Virus record (IMG/VR): IMGVR_UViG_2660238462_000006
Reading direction: 5' to 3' (one strand)
Length of the DNA: 6,117 bases
From: a virus
Lineage: Duplodnaviria > Heunggongvirae > Uroviricota > Caudoviricetes
Part shown: piece by piece, positions 2,952-6,117 of the stretch
How positions within the stretch are numbered: position 1 is the first letter of the stretch
Layout of the letters: each line of letters opens with the position of its first letter
The notes under the pieces: generated by a model
The model's database searches: none
The model's input: only the letters and a program-made list of their open reading frames with translations
What the model was told of the DNA's origin: nothing
Made by a program: the position numbers and the translations under genes

Positions 2952-3128
2952 TGTTCATTCCACGGCCAAAAACAGAGAAAGGAAACGACAGAGGCCCAAA
3001 AGCTCGTTTTCAGCACCTGTCGTTTCCTTTCTTTTCAGGGGGTATTTTAAATAAAAACATTAAGTTACGACGAAGAAGAACGGAAATGCCTTAAACCGGA
3101 AAATTTTCATAAATAGCGAAAACCCGCG
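2952..3128. promoter_or_regulatory. cosB-like terminase binding region (R1, R2, R3 repeats and an A/T-rich IHF-type site I1)
   Basis: Three GAAAGGAAACG-type elements sit between the Nu1 start and cosN: about 2973-2993 (cagagaaaggaaacgacagag), 3016-3036 (inverted copy, cctgtcgtttcctttcttttc) and 3071-3090 (cgaagaagaacggaaatgcc). An A/T tract ggtattttaaataaaaacattaag lies between R2 and R3. The arrangement matches lambda cosB with a few point differences. Element boundaries are approximate. Confidence 0.7.
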
Positions 3129-3140
3129 AGGTCGCCGCCC
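3129..3140. other. cosN: 12-nt cohesive-end sequence (minus strand reads GGGCGGCGACCT)
   Basis: Plus strand 3117-3160 is gcgaaaacccgcg|aggtcgccgccc|cgtaacctgtcggatcgccg. Its reverse complement, CGGCGATCCGACAGGTTACG|GGGCGGCGACCT|CGCGGGTTTTCGC, is the lambda right-end/left-end junction as I recall it. Confidence 0.85.
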
Positions 3141-3339
3141 CGTAACCTGTCGGATCGCCGGAAAGGACCCGCAAAATGATAATAATTATCATCTGCATGT
3201 CACAACGTGCATCTACGCAATCAAACCACGTCAAATAATCAATTATGACGCAGATATCGTATTAATTGATCTGCATCAACTTAACGTAAAAACAACTTCA
3301 GACAATACAAATCAGCGACACTGAATACGGGACAACCTC

Positions 3340-3573
3340 ATGTCAACGAAGAACAGAACCCGCAGAACAACAACCCGCAACATCCGCTTTCCTAACCAAA
3401 TGATTGAACAAATTAACATCGCTCTTGATCAAAAAGGGTCCGGGAATTTCTCAGCCTGGGTCATTGAAGCCTGCCGCCGGAGACTGTGCTCAGAAAAAAG
3501 AGTTTCTCCTGAAGCAAACAAAGAAAAGAGTGACATTACTGAATTGCTCAGAAAACAGATCAGACCAGATTGA
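3340..3573 (+). CDS. Small basic ribbon-helix-helix-like protein, DUF3950/YlcI-like (77 aa); putative DNA-binding regulator
   Basis: Intact 77-aa ORF in an AT-rich segment where random ORFs are unlikely. Basic N-terminus KNRTRRTTTRNIRFP, then helix NQMIEQINIALDQ, G-x-S turn (KGSG) and second helix NFSAWVIEACRRRL, which is the RHH fold pattern. The SAW motif is the one I recall for DUF3950. The ribosome-binding site is weak, so start choice is uncertain. Confidence 0.7.
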   Translation: MSTKNRTRRTTTRNIRFPNQMIEQINIALDQKGSGNFSAWVIEACRRRLCSEKRVSPEANKEKSDITELLRKQIRPD

Positions 3574-3629
3574 AGCAATTTAGATAATCGTGCAGACTAC
3601 GCCCCTCATATCACATGGAAGGTACTACA

Positions 3630-4040
3630 ATGGCTCAGGTTGCCATTTTTAAACAAATATTCGATAAAGTGCGAAAAGATTTAAACTGTGAATTGTTTTA
3701 TTCTGAACTAAAACGTCACAACGTCTCACATTATATTTACTATCTAGCCACAGATAATATTCACATCGTGTTAGAAAACGATAACACTGTGTTAATAAAA
3801 GGACTTAAAAAGGTTGTAAATGTTAAATTCTCAAGAAACACGCATCTTATAGAAACGTCCTATGATAGGTTGAAATCAAGAGAAATCACATTTCAGCAAT
3901 ACAGGGAAAATCTTGCTAAAGCAGGAGTTTTCCGGTGGGTTACAAATATCCACGAACAAAAAAGATATTACTATACCTTTGATAATTCATTACTCTTTAC
4001 TGAAAACATACAGAGCACATCACAAATGTTTCCACACTAA
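3630..4040 (+). CDS. DUF1398/YbcV-like prophage protein of unknown function (136 aa from ATG 3630; in-frame alternative start at 3615 gives 141 aa)
   Basis: [64 protein letters not shown]... with a GGAAGG Shine-Dalgarno 7 nt before ATG 3630. No signal peptide or TM segment is visible. Family assignment is from memory of the E. coli DLP12 YbcV / lambda right-arm ORF and is unverified. Confidence 0.78.
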
Positions 4041-4308
4041 ACCATAACGTCCGGTTTCTTCTACCCCTGCACCGGACTGGCTGACATGAAGAGCAACCCC
4101 GCGTTCAGTTGACGCGTTAATAACCCGGTGTGCATCGTTTTTGATTATTCCCGCACACTCACGCAGAAGGAATTCCCCGTCGGGCTACGGTCATGGTTAA
4201 TGCGGGAATACGGCGACGATACAGCGCATGATGTGTCAGGCTTGAATACCTTTATCCGTTAAAAGGGATATCAGTTAAGTTATCCCGTGTAGGGTATAAA
4301 CCATTATC

Positions 4309-4335
4309 AAAGCCACTCTGTAGGGAGTGGCTTTT
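4309..4335 (+). terminator. Intrinsic (Rho-independent) terminator hairpin, possibly bidirectional
   Basis: Perfect 10-bp inverted repeat aaagccactc (4309-4318) / gagtggcttt (4325-4334) with 6-nt loop tgtagg, followed by ttttgt on the + strand. On the minus strand the hairpin is followed by tttgataat. Confidence 0.6.
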
Positions 4336-4543
4336 GTAATGACAATAAAAAGCCCCGCGAATACGAGGCTAAATCCTGGTATTTGTAATGACTGGCTCTT
4401 ATCTCAACGCAGCCCCTTACCGCGCGCAAGATGCTCAATATCAAGCATCAGCAATGAGATATTTAATCTGGATTCACTCCAGAAGTGATCACCACCCTGT
4501 CTACAGAGCCAGATGTGAAGGATGATGAGTAAAATTATCGCTA

Positions 4544-5011
4544 TCATCGAAGGCATTGCGTCCTGATATATTCCTGAAGCGTTCTCAGTGCTGTCTGGTC
4601 TCTGATGATTCCGTCCCGGATACCGAGAACGTTTCGTCCAGCAACTGGAGAGAGTTCGACGGTGGCATCATTGCCCATGCCGGAGGCGCTGGAGGTTTCG
4701 GCAGAGGATGGCACAGGGCATTTTCCTTTGACGAGCACCCTGCCACCATTATCAAGCTTCCGCAGAAGAGCATCATTTTCAGCTTTCGCATCAGCTAACT
4801 CCTTCGTGTATTTTGCATCGAGCGCAGCAACATCACGCTGACGCATCTGCATGTCAGTAATTGCCGCGTTCGCCAGCTTCAGTTCTCTGACATTTTTGTC
4901 GCGCTGGGCTTTGTAGGTAATGGCGTTATCACGGTAATGATTAACAGCCCATGACAGGCAGACGATGATGCAGATAACCAGAGCGGAGATAATCGCGGTT
5001 ACTCTGTTCAT
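4544..5011 (-). CDS. Rz: Rz i-spanin (inner-membrane spanin subunit), 155 aa from ATG 5011 (track ORF extends to a GTG at 5023)
   Basis: [40 protein letters not shown]... has an N-terminal TM segment and coiled-coil-like region matching lambda Rz over the first ~85 residues; the C-terminal half diverges. ATG 5011-5009 overlaps the endolysin TGA stop (ATGA). Confidence 0.9.
4585..4791 (-). CDS. Rz1: Rz1 o-spanin (outer-membrane lipoprotein), embedded in the +1 frame of Rz
   Basis: 68-aa [42 protein letters not shown]... with lipoprotein signal and lipobox (VAGC) and a proline-rich mature part. Strong GAAGGAG Shine-Dalgarno 7 nt upstream of ATG 4791. Lies entirely inside Rz, the classic embedded-gene architecture. 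Confidence 0.85.
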
Positions 5012-5505
5012 TGCTGACCCCACAAACAGATTTCACGCTCAATCTCACGACGAGTCATGAGACCTTTCCATTGCTTACCGCCAGCATATGTCCAGCGACG
5101 TAGCTGATCACATGCGTCTTTGATATCGCCCTTGTTTATTTTGCGAAGAAGCGTCGATGTTCTGAAATTGCCAGCACCCACGTTGTAAACGAATGAGTAA
5201 AGAGCGCCGCGCATTGTTTCCGGTATATCGACTTTGATGTACGGGTTAATTTGTCTGGCGACCGTGGCAAGGTCTTTATTCAGGAGGGCTTTGCATTCTG
5301 CTTTGGTATACGTTTTACCGAGCATGATGTCTTTTCCTGTATGCCCGTGACATACAGTCCATACACCAACAATATCTTTGTATGGTATGTAGCTGACACC
5401 TTCCAGACCATCGTTACCACTTGGGCCAGTAATTAACACTGATGCTATAGCAATTGCTCCGCCACCAATAGCAGCAGCAACGGCTTTTCGTAATGATGGA
5501 GGCAT
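5008..5505 (-). CDS. R: SAR endolysin (T4-lysozyme-like muramidase, GH24, with N-terminal signal-arrest-release domain), P21 R-type, 165 aa
   Basis: [57 protein letters not shown]... has a Gly/Ala-rich weakly hydrophobic N-terminal SAR segment, then the E35-D44-T50 catalytic triad spacing of T4-type lysozymes. Near-identical to the P21 endolysin as recalled. GAGGTG Shine-Dalgarno present; the start overlaps the holin stop (TAATG). Confidence 0.95.
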
Positions 5506-5720
5506 TATTCACCTCTCGCAGCCTTGCGCTTATCTTCTTTAATCTTGAAATAAAGGTTTGTCAGGTACGTCAGCAGGCCAAATACCAGGCTACCCAGCAC
5601 ACCTATTGCTGCCCACTGTGAGGGCGTGACTTTATCGAGCAGCTGTAAAAACCAGTAACCGGCACTACCTGCTGAGGTGCCATAGGCGACACCCGTTGTT
5701 AACTTATCCATGGATTTCAT
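5505..5720 (-). CDS. S: Pinholin, S21-type class II holin (71 aa) with dual-start motif
   Basis: [71 protein letters not shown] has two TM segments (the first Gly/Ala-rich) and a charged C-terminus. Met1 (5720) and Met4 (5711) separated by Lys give the antiholin/holin dual start. Matches P21 S21 / DLP12 EssD from memory. The upstream ribosome-binding site falls in the N gap. Confidence 0.93.
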
Positions 5721-5841: not shown

Positions 5842-6117
5842 GTGGCTTCTGTTTCTATCAGCTGTCCCTCCTGTTCAGCTACTGACGGGGTGGTGCGTAA
5901 CGGCAAAAGCACCGCCGGACATCAGCGCTATCTCTGCTCTCACTGCCGTAAAACATGGCAACTGCAGTTCACTTACACCGCTTCTCAACCCGGTACGCAC
6001 CAGAAAATCATTGATATGGCCATGAATGGCGTTGGATGCCGGGCAACAGCCCGCATTATGGGCGTTGGCCTCAACACGATTTTACGTCACTTAAAAAACT
6101 CAGGCCGCAGTCGGTAA
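5842..6117 (+). CDS. insA: IS1 InsA (transposition repressor; zinc-finger plus HTH), 91 aa, GTG start
   Basis: [91 protein letters not shown] has C-x2-C...C-x2-C and a C-terminal HTH. The stop codon TAA is at 6115-6117, the window end. Confidence 0.95.
6093..6099 (+). promoter_or_regulatory. IS1 programmed -1 ribosomal frameshift site (A6C) that produces the InsAB' transposase
   Basis: aaaaaac at 6093-6099, just before the insA stop, as in canonical IS1. The insB frame lies beyond the window. Confidence 0.8.

What the first reader, a model, noticed from the sequence alone, without database searches (positions are those of the whole stretch)
3340..4040. Opposite-strand two-gene unit between cos and the lysis cassette: RHH (DUF3950-like) regulator plus DUF1398/YbcV-like protein of unknown function
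The two ORFs run against the flanking lysis and packaging genes, in a segment far more AT-rich than the neighbouring phage genes. They have their own upstream AT-rich leader and a downstream intrinsic terminator, which suggests an independently transcribed, horizontally acquired cargo unit that may be expressed in the lysogen. The layout of a small RHH DNA-binding protein followed 56 bp later by a ~136-aa soluble protein resembles an antitoxin/toxin or regulator/effector pair, although the spacing is wider than in typical toxin-antitoxin operons. I know of no established function for either family, so this is the most plausible location for an undescribed accessory function such as superinfection exclusion, defence or host modulation.
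Basis: partly seen in the sequence, partly recalled or inferred. Interest (0 to 1): 0.55.

Follow-up and report, generated by a model that had tools for sequence, protein, structure and literature searches.

The report
Known lambdoid ynfO–ydfO accessory genes
The two opposite-strand genes are real, but they are the long-annotated ynfO and ydfO genes found beside the cos site of lambda-like prophages in most E. coli; their function is still unknown, and the evidence does not support a toxin–antitoxin pair.

Summary
Window 3340-3573 (+) encodes a 77-aa DUF3950 protein. After a 56-nt spacer, 3630-4040 (+) encodes a 136-aa DUF1398 protein. Both lie between cosN (3129-3140) and Rz, against the flanking genes, in AT-rich DNA (ydfO 32% GC, terminase 53-54%).

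This layout is that of E. coli K-12 Qin ynfO-ydfO. Homologues are ylcI/ybcV in DLP12 and an unannotated ORF plus lambdap78 in phage lambda. YdfO has a solved structure (2HH8). Matching DNA occurs in about 3,000-4,200 of 5,426 complete E. coli genomes.

Both genes are under purifying selection, but they are not an obligate pair:
- YnfO-like genes are 2.5-3.6 times commoner than DUF1398 genes.
- In Stx/BP-4795-type phages the YnfO-like gene stands alone next to a different packaging module.
- None of 31 distant DUF1398 genes has a YnfO-like neighbour.
- In lambda and DLP12 an opposite-strand gene (ybcW/lambdap79) separates the two.

The DUF1398 fold has no informative structural relative, and no defence-system model matches it. 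YnfO looks like an Arc/Mnt-type ribbon-helix-helix protein, but no statistical test confirmed this.

Most likely these are two independent lysogen-side accessory genes of unknown function. This is already known and of low to moderate interest.

The parts
3129..3140 (.). cosN cohesive-end sequence. AGGTCGCCGCCC is the reverse complement of lambda's GGGCGGCGACCT. It marks the right end of the packaged genome, 199 nt before the ynfO start.
   Evidence: Sequence read. The region is identical in lambda-type HK629, DLP12 and Qin (alignment A1). The identity of the lambda overhang sequence is from my own knowledge.
3177..3191 (.). Perfect 7-1-7 palindrome TGATAATAATTATCA just inside cos. It overlaps the -10 of a promoter-like site on the minus strand (3203-3176). 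Its role is unknown. It lies in the leader of the unit but is not shown to belong to it.
   Evidence: one match, none in 200 shuffles; minus-strand promoter-like hit. Both 7-nt arms are conserved in lambda-type, DLP12 and Qin; only the central base varies.
3238..3278 (.). Nested inverted repeats (ATCAATTATGACG/CGTATTAATTGAT and TGACGCAGAT/ATCTGCATCA) 60-100 nt upstream of ynfO. Candidate operator or promoter region; not tested.
   Evidence: The sequence is near-invariant in all lambda-type cos loci. It is absent upstream of the BP-4795-type ylcI-like genes.
3340..3573 (+). ynfO-like gene, 77 aa, DUF3950 (YlcI/YnfO family). Residues 1-50 are a conserved, probably Arc/Mnt-like ribbon-helix-helix module with a basic N-terminal arm. 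Residues 51-77 are a variable tail of the Qin type.
   Evidence: dN/dS 0.05-0.10; helices at 19-32 and 34-52; weak HicB-like and Arc-like PHROG hits; correct Arc register, E 0.12-0.14.
3574..3629 (+). 56-nt spacer holding the ydfO Shine-Dalgarno sequence GGAAGG (3617-3622). The adjoining 3553-3570 (AAACAGATCAGACCAGAT) matches the sequence reported as a PdhR-box-like site at ybcV and ydfO. It also marks the right edge of the roughly 560-bp ybcW/lambdap79 insert present in lambda and DLP12.
   Evidence: PMC7660256, read.
3630..4040 (+). ydfO/ybcV-like gene, 136 aa, DUF1398 (an in-frame ATG at 3615 gives 141 aa). A soluble protein built from two alpha2-beta3 repeats, with an orphan fold.
4049..4077 (+). 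Hairpin GTCCGGT...ACCGGAC directly after the ydfO stop, with no U tract. It is kept in all variants, with one compensatory T-A to C-G change in Qin. It is not a canonical terminator.
   Evidence: 11 sequence variants; dG -10.4, z -1.4.
4128..4228 (.). Conserved non-coding core. In lambda and DLP12 the same sequence lies upstream of bor, on ColV-type plasmids upstream of iss, and in DUF1398-less prophages directly after the ylcI-like gene. In this window bor itself is absent.
   Evidence: 12,861 places in 4,767 genomes..
4309..4334 (+). Strong terminator-like hairpin followed by UUUUG. It is the likely 3' end of the plus-strand unit.
   Evidence: dG -23.4 kcal/mol, z -6.7, 0 of 200 shuffles fold as well.
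4351..4370 (-). Terminator-like hairpin with a U tract on the opposite strand, facing the lysis genes. Together with 4309-4334 it forms a back-to-back convergent pair. In relatives a Rha-family gene is inserted exactly between the two.

Best explanation
**Identity (shown).** This is the Qin-type form of the accessory region at the right end of lambdoid phage genomes. It carries ynfO and ydfO.

**Gene organisation (shown by distribution).** The two genes are separate accessory ('moron') genes. Each is kept by selection, each is shuffled by recombination on its own, and they are adjacent only in this lineage. They are not a toxin-antitoxin pair.

**YnfO (inferred).** The conserved N-terminal 50 residues form a small DNA-binding module of the Arc/Mnt ribbon-helix-helix kind. 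Its constant partner is a position, not a protein. It always sits at the junction between the lysis genes and the packaging genes, on the strand opposite to late transcription.

**YdfO (part shown, part inferred).** It is a soluble cytoplasmic protein with an orphan fold and no recognisable catalytic motif. Its lambda homologue lambdap78 is not needed for lytic growth. I infer that it acts by binding another macromolecule in the lysogen.

**Expression (inferred from K-12 homologues).** The unit is normally kept quiet, probably by H-NS on the AT-rich DNA, and is switched on under particular stresses. In this window transcription would run from the cos-proximal leader to the hairpin at 4309-4334.
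For: **Identity.**
- Pfam matches for both genes and PDB 2HH8.
- Gene order and spacing match K-12 Qin nohA-ynfO-ydfO.
- NCBI annotation of the best genomic matches agrees.
- 79 of 80 IMG/VR loci with the 77-aa YnfO have ydfO 56-58 nt downstream (138 nt in one), and 78 of them, all that extend that far upstream, have Nu1 381-431 nt upstream, mostly 388-389.

**Independence of the two genes.**
- 155 phage records carry a YnfO-like gene, 43 carry DUF1398.
- E. coli genomes hold 9,865 ynfO-like places and 3,869 ydfO-like places.
- The ylcI-like gene stands alone beside HNH-TerS-TerL in BP-4795, Lys8385Vzw and strain S9.
- 0 of 31 distant DUF1398 loci have a YnfO-like neighbour.
- ybcW/lambdap79 is inserted between the two genes in lambda and DLP12.
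- The window is itself mosaic. Its YnfO tail is Qin-type, while its ydfO is 94% identical to lambda's and 80% to Qin's.

**Selection.** dN/dS is 0.05-0.10 for YnfO residues 1-50 and about 0.2 for ydfO.

**YnfO fold.**
- Helices are predicted at 19-32 and 34-52, after an unstructured basic arm.
- The motif N-x-R-x-P ... G-x4-S lies in the same register as Arc and Mnt.
- 15 of 17 family members weakly hit a HicB-like PHROG and 2 hit an Arc-like PHROG.

**YdfO.**
- The model is confident, and only 2HH8 matches it.
- No PADLOC defence model matches it convincingly (best E 0.016).
- lambdap78 is non-essential by CRISPRi (PMC10695390).
- The ybcV knockout of the Keio collection was used as a viable strain (PMC3945230).

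**Expression of homologues.** PMC4077768, PMC7660256 and PMC7827196.
Against: - No promoter-like site was found on the plus strand upstream of either gene, so the transcription start is unknown.
- The ribbon-helix-helix assignment is not statistically supported: hhalign E 0.12-0.14, Foldseek E above 5, and no PDB hit with the family profile.
- Within the lambda-type cos lineage the two genes almost always co-occur. A lineage-specific regulatory link, YnfO controlling ydfO, is therefore not excluded.
- The expression data come from K-12 homologues, not from this element.
- 'Binds another macromolecule' is a default inference for a small protein without motifs. It is not a result.
Confidence: 0.7

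Rival explanations
1. YnfO is an antitoxin or dedicated regulator, and YdfO is its toxin or effector, working as an obligate two-gene system.
For: - The two genes lie on the same strand 56 nt apart, with a small probable DNA-binding protein first.
- They co-occur almost without exception in the Qin-type module (79 of 80 loci).
- YnfO family members weakly hit a PHROG named HicB-like antitoxin (E about 0.004-0.007).
Against: - Each family occurs widely without the other.
- In lambda and DLP12 the genes are about 650 bp apart with an opposite-strand gene between them, so ybcV needs its own promoter there.
- The spacer is much longer than in typical toxin-antitoxin operons.
- YdfO was produced in quantity for an NMR structure (2HH8). 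I infer this argues against strong toxicity.
- Solo DUF1398 genes such as ycgX are intact in E. coli and other Enterobacteriaceae.
- No PADLOC model matches either protein convincingly: none for YnfO, best E 0.016 for the DUF1398 protein.
- The P0047 'fusion protein' is an artefact of reading TGA as Trp.
Confidence: 0.1
2. One or both genes give the lysogen protection against other phages (superinfection exclusion or defence), or act for the phage against host defence or as a trigger of it.
For: - The slot between the lysis genes and cos holds lysogen-expressed cargo such as bor.
- The neighbouring lambda gene lambdap79 is the protein that activates the Vulcan defence system. Escape phages delete it by recombining with Qin, which produces the layout seen in this window (bioRxiv 10.64898/2026.09.04.749371).
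- The genes lie at the DNA end that, from my own knowledge of lambda, enters the cell first.
Against: - PADLOC gives no convincing match.
- No paper in the searched library links these genes to phage resistance.
- There is no structural similarity to known defence or anti-defence proteins.
Confidence: 0.15
3. YnfO acts in cis at the lysis-packaging junction. For example it could bind near cos or the terminase genes, or its antisense transcription could modulate late read-through into the packaging genes. On this view ydfO is unrelated cargo.
For: - YnfO-like genes occupy the same junction, on the strand opposite to late transcription, next to two different packaging modules. These are Nu1/A with a lambda cos, and HNH-TerS-TerL.
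- The cos-to-ynfO interval is almost invariant among lambda, DLP12, Qin and the window.
Against: - The DNA upstream of the gene is unrelated in the two module types, and no shared motif exceeds chance.
- CRISPRi data exist only for lambdap78 and lambdap79, not for the lambda ylcI-like ORF.
- From my own knowledge, minimal lambda cos function does not require this region.
Confidence: 0.08
4. YdfO is a structural virion or envelope protein, as the database names 'head protein' (PHROG 413, RefSeq lambda) and 'putative envelope protein' suggest.
For: PHROG 413 is labelled 'head protein'. RefSeq and GenBank lambda-like records carry these names.
Against: - The gene lies on the strand opposite to the late operon.
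- Its lambda homologue is non-essential for plaque formation.
- The protein is a soluble monomeric NMR target. I saw no signal peptide or hydrophobic segment when reading the sequence.
- It is retained in defective prophages and as the solo chromosomal gene ycgX.
Confidence: 0.02

Closest known systems
E. coli K-12 Qin prophage ynfO (b4533) and ydfO (b1549)
   Same: Same order nohA/Nu1, cos, ynfO, ydfO. Same gene lengths (234 and 411 bp) and a 57-nt spacer against 56 nt here. YnfO is 95-96% identical in close relatives.
   Different: The window's ydfO is only about 80% identical to Qin ydfO and is closer to the lambda/DLP12 type (93-94%). The window keeps full-length terminase genes, whereas Qin is truncated. 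Qin has gnsB downstream, where the window has a bor-leader remnant and terminators.
DLP12 ylcI-ybcW-ybcV-borD, and phage lambda's unannotated ylcI-like ORF with lambdap79, lambdap78 and bor
   Same: The interval from cos to codon 57 of the first gene is homologous and almost identical. The DUF1398 gene is 93-94% identical. The hairpin after the stop and the non-coding core are shared.
   Different: Lambda and DLP12 carry a roughly 560-bp insert with ybcW/lambdap79 on the other strand. This replaces the YnfO tail (64 aa instead of 77) and separates the two genes. Bor follows in lambda and DLP12, and bor is absent here.
YdfO solution structure, PDB 2HH8 (structural genomics; function unassigned)
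   Different: Nothing structural. The entry carries no functional information.
P22 Arc and Mnt repressors (ribbon-helix-helix)
   Same: YnfO has the N-x-R-[FWM]-P strand motif, a G-x4-S turn and two helices of matching length, all in the same register. It is small and phage-borne.
   Different: No significant sequence or fold score (E 0.12-0.14; Foldseek E above 5). There is no neighbouring ant gene in this window. Any operator is unknown. Pfam files it as DUF3950, not Arc.
Type II toxin-antitoxin operons with a ribbon-helix-helix antitoxin (for example the HicB, ParD and CopG types)
   Same: A small probable DNA-binding protein is encoded first, a second small protein follows on the same strand, and the element is mobile.
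   Different: The spacer is 56 nt rather than overlapping or abutting. The partners are not co-distributed. The second protein has no toxin fold or motif. Lambda's version is split by another gene.

Membership tests
Pfam DUF3950 / NCBIfam YlcI/YnfO family | Score above the curated cut-off of the family profile | tested here: met
   PF13132 scores 74.8 bits against a cut-off of 25. NF041551 scores 35.7 against 30.
Pfam DUF1398 (YdfO/YbcV/YcgX) | Full-length match to the profile above its cut-off, and the YdfO fold | tested here: met
Ribbon-helix-helix (Arc/MetJ-type) DNA-binding proteins | Significant sequence or profile similarity to a bona fide ribbon-helix-helix family | tested here: inconclusive
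   hhalign against Arc/Mnt profiles gives E 0.12 and 0.14, in the expected register. Pfam at E up to 10 returns no ribbon-helix-helix family. PHROG HicB-like is hit by 15 of 17 members at E about 0.004-0.01, and Arc-like by 2 of 17 at E 0.09. A family-profile search of the PDB found nothing.
Ribbon-helix-helix (Arc/MetJ-type) DNA-binding proteins | Strand-helix-helix topology forming an intertwined dimer | tested here: inconclusive
   The monomer model has the two helices (19-32, 34-52) but no strand, at pLDDT 69. The best Foldseek hits are ribbon-helix-helix-like (TCP domain, Reg576) but at E 5.6-8.1. A dimer could not be modelled with these tools.
Ribbon-helix-helix (Arc/MetJ-type) DNA-binding proteins | Sequence-specific binding to repeated operator half-sites | not testable with these tools
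   Candidate repeats lie at 3238-3278, but they are not shared with the BP-4795-type loci.
Type II toxin-antitoxin system | The two genes are co-inherited as a pair wherever either occurs | tested here: not met
   155 phage records against 43. 9,865 genomic places against 3,869. 0 of 31 distant DUF1398 loci have a YnfO-like ORF. The ylcI-like gene stands alone in BP-4795-type phages.
Type II toxin-antitoxin system | Tight operon: overlapping or abutting genes under one autoregulated promoter | tested here: not met
   The spacer is 56 nt here. In lambda and DLP12 the genes are about 650 bp apart with ybcW/lambdap79 on the opposite strand between them.
Type II toxin-antitoxin system | The second protein belongs to a known toxin fold or family | tested here: not met
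Type II toxin-antitoxin system | Toxicity of the second protein, neutralised by the first | not testable with these tools
   There is only an indirect argument: YdfO was over-produced for NMR (2HH8).
Known anti-phage defence systems (PADLOC-DB 2.0) | Match to a defence-protein model | tested here: not met
   No family matches YnfO. For YdfO there is only a weak Csx23 hit at E 0.016.
Lambdoid 'moron' (lysogenic-conversion cargo such as bor) | Located between functional modules, on the strand opposite to late genes, with deviant base composition and its own terminator | tested here: met
   (32-44% GC against 52-54%). (terminator-like hairpin at 4309-4334).
Lambdoid 'moron' (lysogenic-conversion cargo such as bor) | Own promoter, active in the lysogen | tested here: inconclusive
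   No plus-strand sigma-70 consensus site was found. The K-12 homologues in defective prophages are transcribed and regulated (PMC4077768, PMC7660256, PMC7827196).

The most novel reading that the evidence does not exclude
The most novel reading has two possible forms.

**First form.** The YlcI/YnfO module is an Arc-like repressor that lambdoid phages keep at the lysis-packaging junction whatever their packaging system. It would work with the widespread but unannotated 100-nt core (window 4128-4228), which also lies upstream of bor and of plasmid iss. Together they would form an undescribed switch controlling lysogen-expressed cargo, including the serum-resistance genes bor and iss.

**Second form.** The orphan-fold DUF1398 protein is a new kind of effector in phage-phage or phage-defence conflict.
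Probability: 0.12. Interest if true: 0.55.

Novelty: already known. Interest (0 to 1): 0.25.

Why it matters
These genes sit in phage lambda itself and in most E. coli genomes, yet they still have no function. Any assignment would fill a gap in the best-studied phage and remove several entries from the list of uncharacterised E. coli 'y' genes.

For this scan, the practical points are these:
- The unit should not be filed as a candidate toxin-antitoxin or defence system on layout alone.
- The two genes should be studied separately.
- The database names 'head protein' and 'envelope protein' for DUF1398 are unsupported.
- The neighbouring lambdap79, absent from this window, has a reported role as the trigger of the Vulcan defence system. 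That shows this small region does take part in phage-host conflict.

Tried and rejected
- **Rfam at a permissive threshold.** It found nothing in 3000-4600 except a chance-level STnc560 hit.
- **Fused YnfO-DUF1398 protein P0047 (761 members) as evidence of a functional link.** Rejected. The 'fusion' reads the ynfO TGA stop as Trp.
- **Non-enterobacterial 'hosts' of the genes (Pseudomonas, Bacillus, Kitasatospora and others).** These are lambda DNA at 94% identity on short or low-coverage contigs, many about 3.5 kb. I take them to be lambda control or vector contamination, which is an inference. The noisy 3.5-kb ENA proteins have the same origin.
- **Pasteurella phage 'transcriptional repressor' hit for YnfO.** It lies on the strand opposite to that annotated gene, so I discarded it.
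- **Shared operator motif upstream of lambda-type and BP-4795-type ynfO genes.** Only 7-8-mers at chance frequency were shared.
- **Fold searches for YdfO.** They were uninformative. The AFDB50 library was unavailable.
- **Arc/Mnt homology for YnfO.** I tried a larger Arc/Mnt profile built from the third protein search. The score did not improve.
- **The conserved core 4128-4228 as a structured RNA.** RNAalifold energy was weak (-6 on the plus strand, -14 on the minus strand), and only one pair showed a double change.
- **The conserved core as a small ORF.** Frame +0 is open in 53 of 57 variants, but the codon-position signal is weak and lambda has a stop. Neither reading is established.
- **Known lambda or EHEC prophage small RNAs (PreS/LPR1, LPR2, 6S, HnrS).** They map elsewhere or have a different strain distribution.
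Full report
**What is in the window**

The window is a stretch of a lambda-like prophage, read in the opposite direction to the standard lambda map.
- On the minus strand lie gpW (303-509), the large terminase subunit (506-2431) and Nu1 (2406-2951).
- Further along the minus strand lie Rz/Rz1 (4544-5023 and 4585-4791), a lysozyme (5008-5505) and a P21-type holin (5505-5720). All have strong Pfam matches.
- The lambda cohesive-end sequence lies at 3129-3140.
- An IS1 insA gene begins at 5842.

Between cos and Rz, on the plus strand, are the two ORFs of the finding.

**Checking the observation**

ORF 3340-3573 encodes 77 aa and matches Pfam DUF3950 (E 4.9e-21) and NCBIfam YlcI_YnfO_N.

The second ORF matches DUF1398 over the whole profile (E 1.4e-46) and the PDB entry 2HH8, 'hypothetical protein ydfO' (E 2e-73). 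Its likely start is the ATG at 3630. A GGAAGG lies 7 nt upstream, and NCBI annotates 136-aa products in close relatives.

GC content is 44% for ynfO and 32% for ydfO, against 53-54% for the terminase genes and 52% for Rz.

Both ORFs evolve as proteins. dN/dS is 0.05-0.10 for YnfO codons 1-50 against the diverged copies of phages BP-4795 and Lys8385Vzw. It is about 0.2 for ydfO against the Qin and DLP12 copies.

The terminator detail needs correction.
- The hairpin immediately after the stop (4049-4077) has no U tract and does not fold better than shuffled sequence (z -1.4). It is nevertheless kept in all 11 sequence variants I collected, with one compensatory change in Qin.
- A much stronger hairpin followed by UUUUG lies at 4309-4334 (dG -23.4, z -6.7). 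It sits back to back with a minus-strand terminator at 4351-4370.
- No sigma-70-like promoter was found on the plus strand.

**What it is**

The arrangement matches nohA-ynfO-ydfO in the Qin prophage of E. coli K-12: the same gene lengths and a 57-nt spacer against 56 nt here. In DLP12 the homologues are ylcI and ybcV.

In lambda and HK629 the DUF1398 gene is lambdap78, annotated 'putative envelope protein'. A ylcI-like ORF is present in lambda but unannotated in the reference record.

Megablast of 3000-4600 finds matches in 4,989 of 5,426 complete E. coli genomes. NCBI names the products 'YlcI/YnfO family protein' and 'DUF1398 domain-containing protein'.

A five-way alignment shows three things.
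- The interval from Nu1 through cos to about codon 57 of ynfO is almost invariant among the window, Qin, DLP12 and a lambda-type phage.
- Lambda and DLP12 then carry a roughly 560-bp insert holding ybcW/lambdap79 on the opposite strand. This insert replaces the YnfO tail and separates the two genes.
- Homology resumes at GGTCAGACCAGATTGAAGC, just upstream of the DUF1398 gene.

The window is itself mosaic. Its YnfO tail is Qin-type, but its ydfO is 93-94% identical to the lambda/DLP12 protein and 79-80% to Qin's.

A recent preprint reports that lambda escapers of the Vulcan defence system delete lambdap79 by recombining with Qin. That event produces the layout seen here.

**Is it a pair?**

- Within the narrow set of loci encoding the 77-aa YnfO, pairing is nearly invariant: 79 of 80 IMG/VR loci. 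This is expected, because the Qin-type tail is physically continuous with the ydfO leader.
- Across the families the link dissolves. In the phage collection 155 records encode a YnfO-like protein and only 43 a DUF1398 protein.
- In complete E. coli genomes there are 9,865 ynfO-like places against 3,869 ydfO-like places.
- In BP-4795, Lys8385Vzw and strain S9 a ylcI-like gene stands alone. It is divergent from an HNH endonuclease and a TerS/TerL pair, and is followed by non-coding DNA and Rz. Homology with the window begins at the start codon and covers only the first 150 nt or so. The upstream DNA is unrelated.
- A scan of one genome per species found DUF1398 genes only in Enterobacteriaceae, once lambda contamination is set aside. 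They occur in Escherichia, Shigella, Citrobacter, Klebsiella, Kluyvera, Pseudocitrobacter and Salmonella diarizonae.
- None of the 31 distant copies (25-51% identity, including ycgX) has a YnfO-like ORF within 4 kb. Several of them lie beside integrase, DinI-like or icd-adjacent prophage remnants.

So each gene is a separate, mobile accessory gene. The constant feature of YnfO is its position at the lysis-packaging junction on the anti-late strand, not its neighbour.

**The proteins**

*YdfO.* The AlphaFold model is confident (pLDDT 87.6) and shows two alpha2-beta3 repeats.
- The viral structure library gives no hit at E 0.001 or better.
- PADLOC gives only a weak Csx23 hit at E 0.016.
- The names 'head protein' (PHROG 413, RefSeq) and 'envelope protein' have no support. 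The gene is on the anti-late strand, the protein is a soluble NMR target, and CRISPRi knock-down of lambdap78 does not affect plaquing.

*YnfO.* The first 50 residues are nearly invariant and the tail is variable.
- The model shows two helices (19-32, 34-52) after a basic arm.
- By eye the sequence RNIRFPNQMIEQINIALDQKGSGNFSAW lines up with Arc (FNLRWPREVLDLVRKVAEENGRSVNSEI). It shares the N-x-R-x-P strand motif and the G-x4-S turn.
- I checked my recalled Arc and Mnt sequences against the PDB. hhalign places the families in that register, but only at E 0.12-0.14, even with a larger Arc/Mnt profile.
- Weak PHROG hits to HicB-like and Arc-like families and weak Foldseek hits to ribbon-helix-helix-like domains point the same way.
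- I therefore call the ribbon-helix-helix assignment probable but unproven.

**Literature**

Full-text searches for all six gene and family names found no functional study. The reports are incidental.
- ydfO is induced 116-fold by an ionic liquid (PMC4077768).
- PdhR-box-like sites lie at ybcV/ybcW and within ydfO, and ybcV falls 10-fold in a pdhR mutant (PMC7660256).
- ybcV and ybcW rise more than 1000-fold when T4 MotB perturbs H-NS repression in BL21(DE3) (PMC7827196).
- ydfO is among four Qin genes that respond to DicC.
- ycgX is noted as a third K-12 paralogue (PMC3509220).

These reports show that homologues in defective prophages are transcribed and regulated independently of phage late expression.

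**Most likely mechanism**

*Shown.* These are two selected protein-coding accessory genes of known families. They are independently distributed, lie on the anti-late strand in AT-rich DNA, and are not needed for lytic growth in lambda.

*Inferred.*
- YnfO is a small Arc-like DNA-binding protein.
- YdfO is a non-enzymatic binding protein acting in the lysogen.
- The unit is normally silenced and is induced by stress.
- In this window it ends at the 4309-4334 hairpin.

I put 0.7 on this overall picture. The identity part is close to certain. The functional part is much weaker.

| Rival reading | Probability |
|---|---|
| Obligate toxin-antitoxin or regulator-effector pair | about 0.1 |
| Phage-conflict role | about 0.15 (compatible with the main picture) |
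| Cis role for YnfO at the packaging junction | about 0.08 |
| Structural protein | about 0.02 |

**Novelty and score**

The objects are already known: named K-12 genes, lambda ORFs, Pfam and NCBIfam families, and a PDB structure. What remains open is their function. That is a real but long-standing and modest question, and nothing in this window makes it more tractable than in K-12 or lambda. Interest is 0.25.

**By-product**

The most interesting by-product is the unannotated 100-nt core at 4128-4228, described under items noticed in passing.

Noticed in passing
window 4128-4228 (wider: 4046-4230): A highly conserved, never-annotated non-coding core. Matches to window 4045-4345 occur at 12,861 places in 4,767 of 5,426 complete E. 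coli genomes, 704 of them on plasmids. The same sequence lies upstream of bor in lambda and DLP12, upstream of iss on a ColV-type plasmid, and directly after the ylcI-like gene in prophages that lack DUF1398. Evidence for RNA structure is weak, and one reading frame is open in 53 of 57 variants but not in lambda. Its function is unknown. It may be a bor/iss regulatory leader.
   Followed up: partly
window 3177-3191: A perfect 7-1-7 palindrome, TGATAATAATTATCA. From memory this is the form of a Fur-box core. It lies just inside cos and overlaps the -10 of a promoter-like site on the minus strand that points towards cos and Nu1 (3203-3176). None occurs in 200 shuffles. It is conserved in lambda-type, DLP12 and Qin loci, where only the central base varies.
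   Followed up: partly
window 4040-4400: The bor gene is missing from this prophage, and the PhoP-box-like repeat TGTTTAGGGTTTGTTTA seen in DLP12 and lambda has decayed. Only the upstream part of the bor region remains. It is followed by two back-to-back convergent terminator hairpins (4309-4334 on the plus strand, 4351-4370 on the minus strand). In many relatives a Rha-family regulator gene is inserted exactly between these hairpins.
   Followed up: partly
window 5842-6117: An IS1 insA gene (Pfam InsA N- and C-terminal domains) starts about 120 nt beyond the holin start. The late-promoter/Q side of the prophage is therefore probably interrupted by IS1, which would make the prophage defective.
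   Followed up: partly
window 3340-4040 compared with L004 and L005: The unit is mosaic. The YnfO tail is Qin-type, while the DUF1398 gene is lambda/DLP12-type. A 2026 preprint reports lambda escaping the Vulcan defence system by swapping this region with Qin and losing lambdap79.
   Followed up: yes
loci L008-L042; proteins: Many assemblies of unrelated bacteria (Pseudomonas, Bacillus relatives, Kitasatospora, Flavobacterium, various MAGs) contain this region at 94% identity on short contigs, many about 3.5 kb. I take this to be lambda control or vector DNA contamination. It also inflates the protein clusters with frameshifted variants.
   Followed up: partly
window 4404-4556 (minus strand): A 50-aa ORF with a hydrophobic N-terminus overlaps the Rz start by 13 nt. 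NCBI annotates it as a hypothetical protein in relatives. It has no Pfam match.
   Followed up: no
L043-L074 (distant DUF1398 loci): In Kluyvera, Klebsiella and related genera, solo DUF1398 genes are often preceded by a conserved divergent 74-aa ORF (MLEGYFDLD...). They lie near DinI-like genes, integrases or icd, which suggests e14-like prophage remnants.
   Followed up: no
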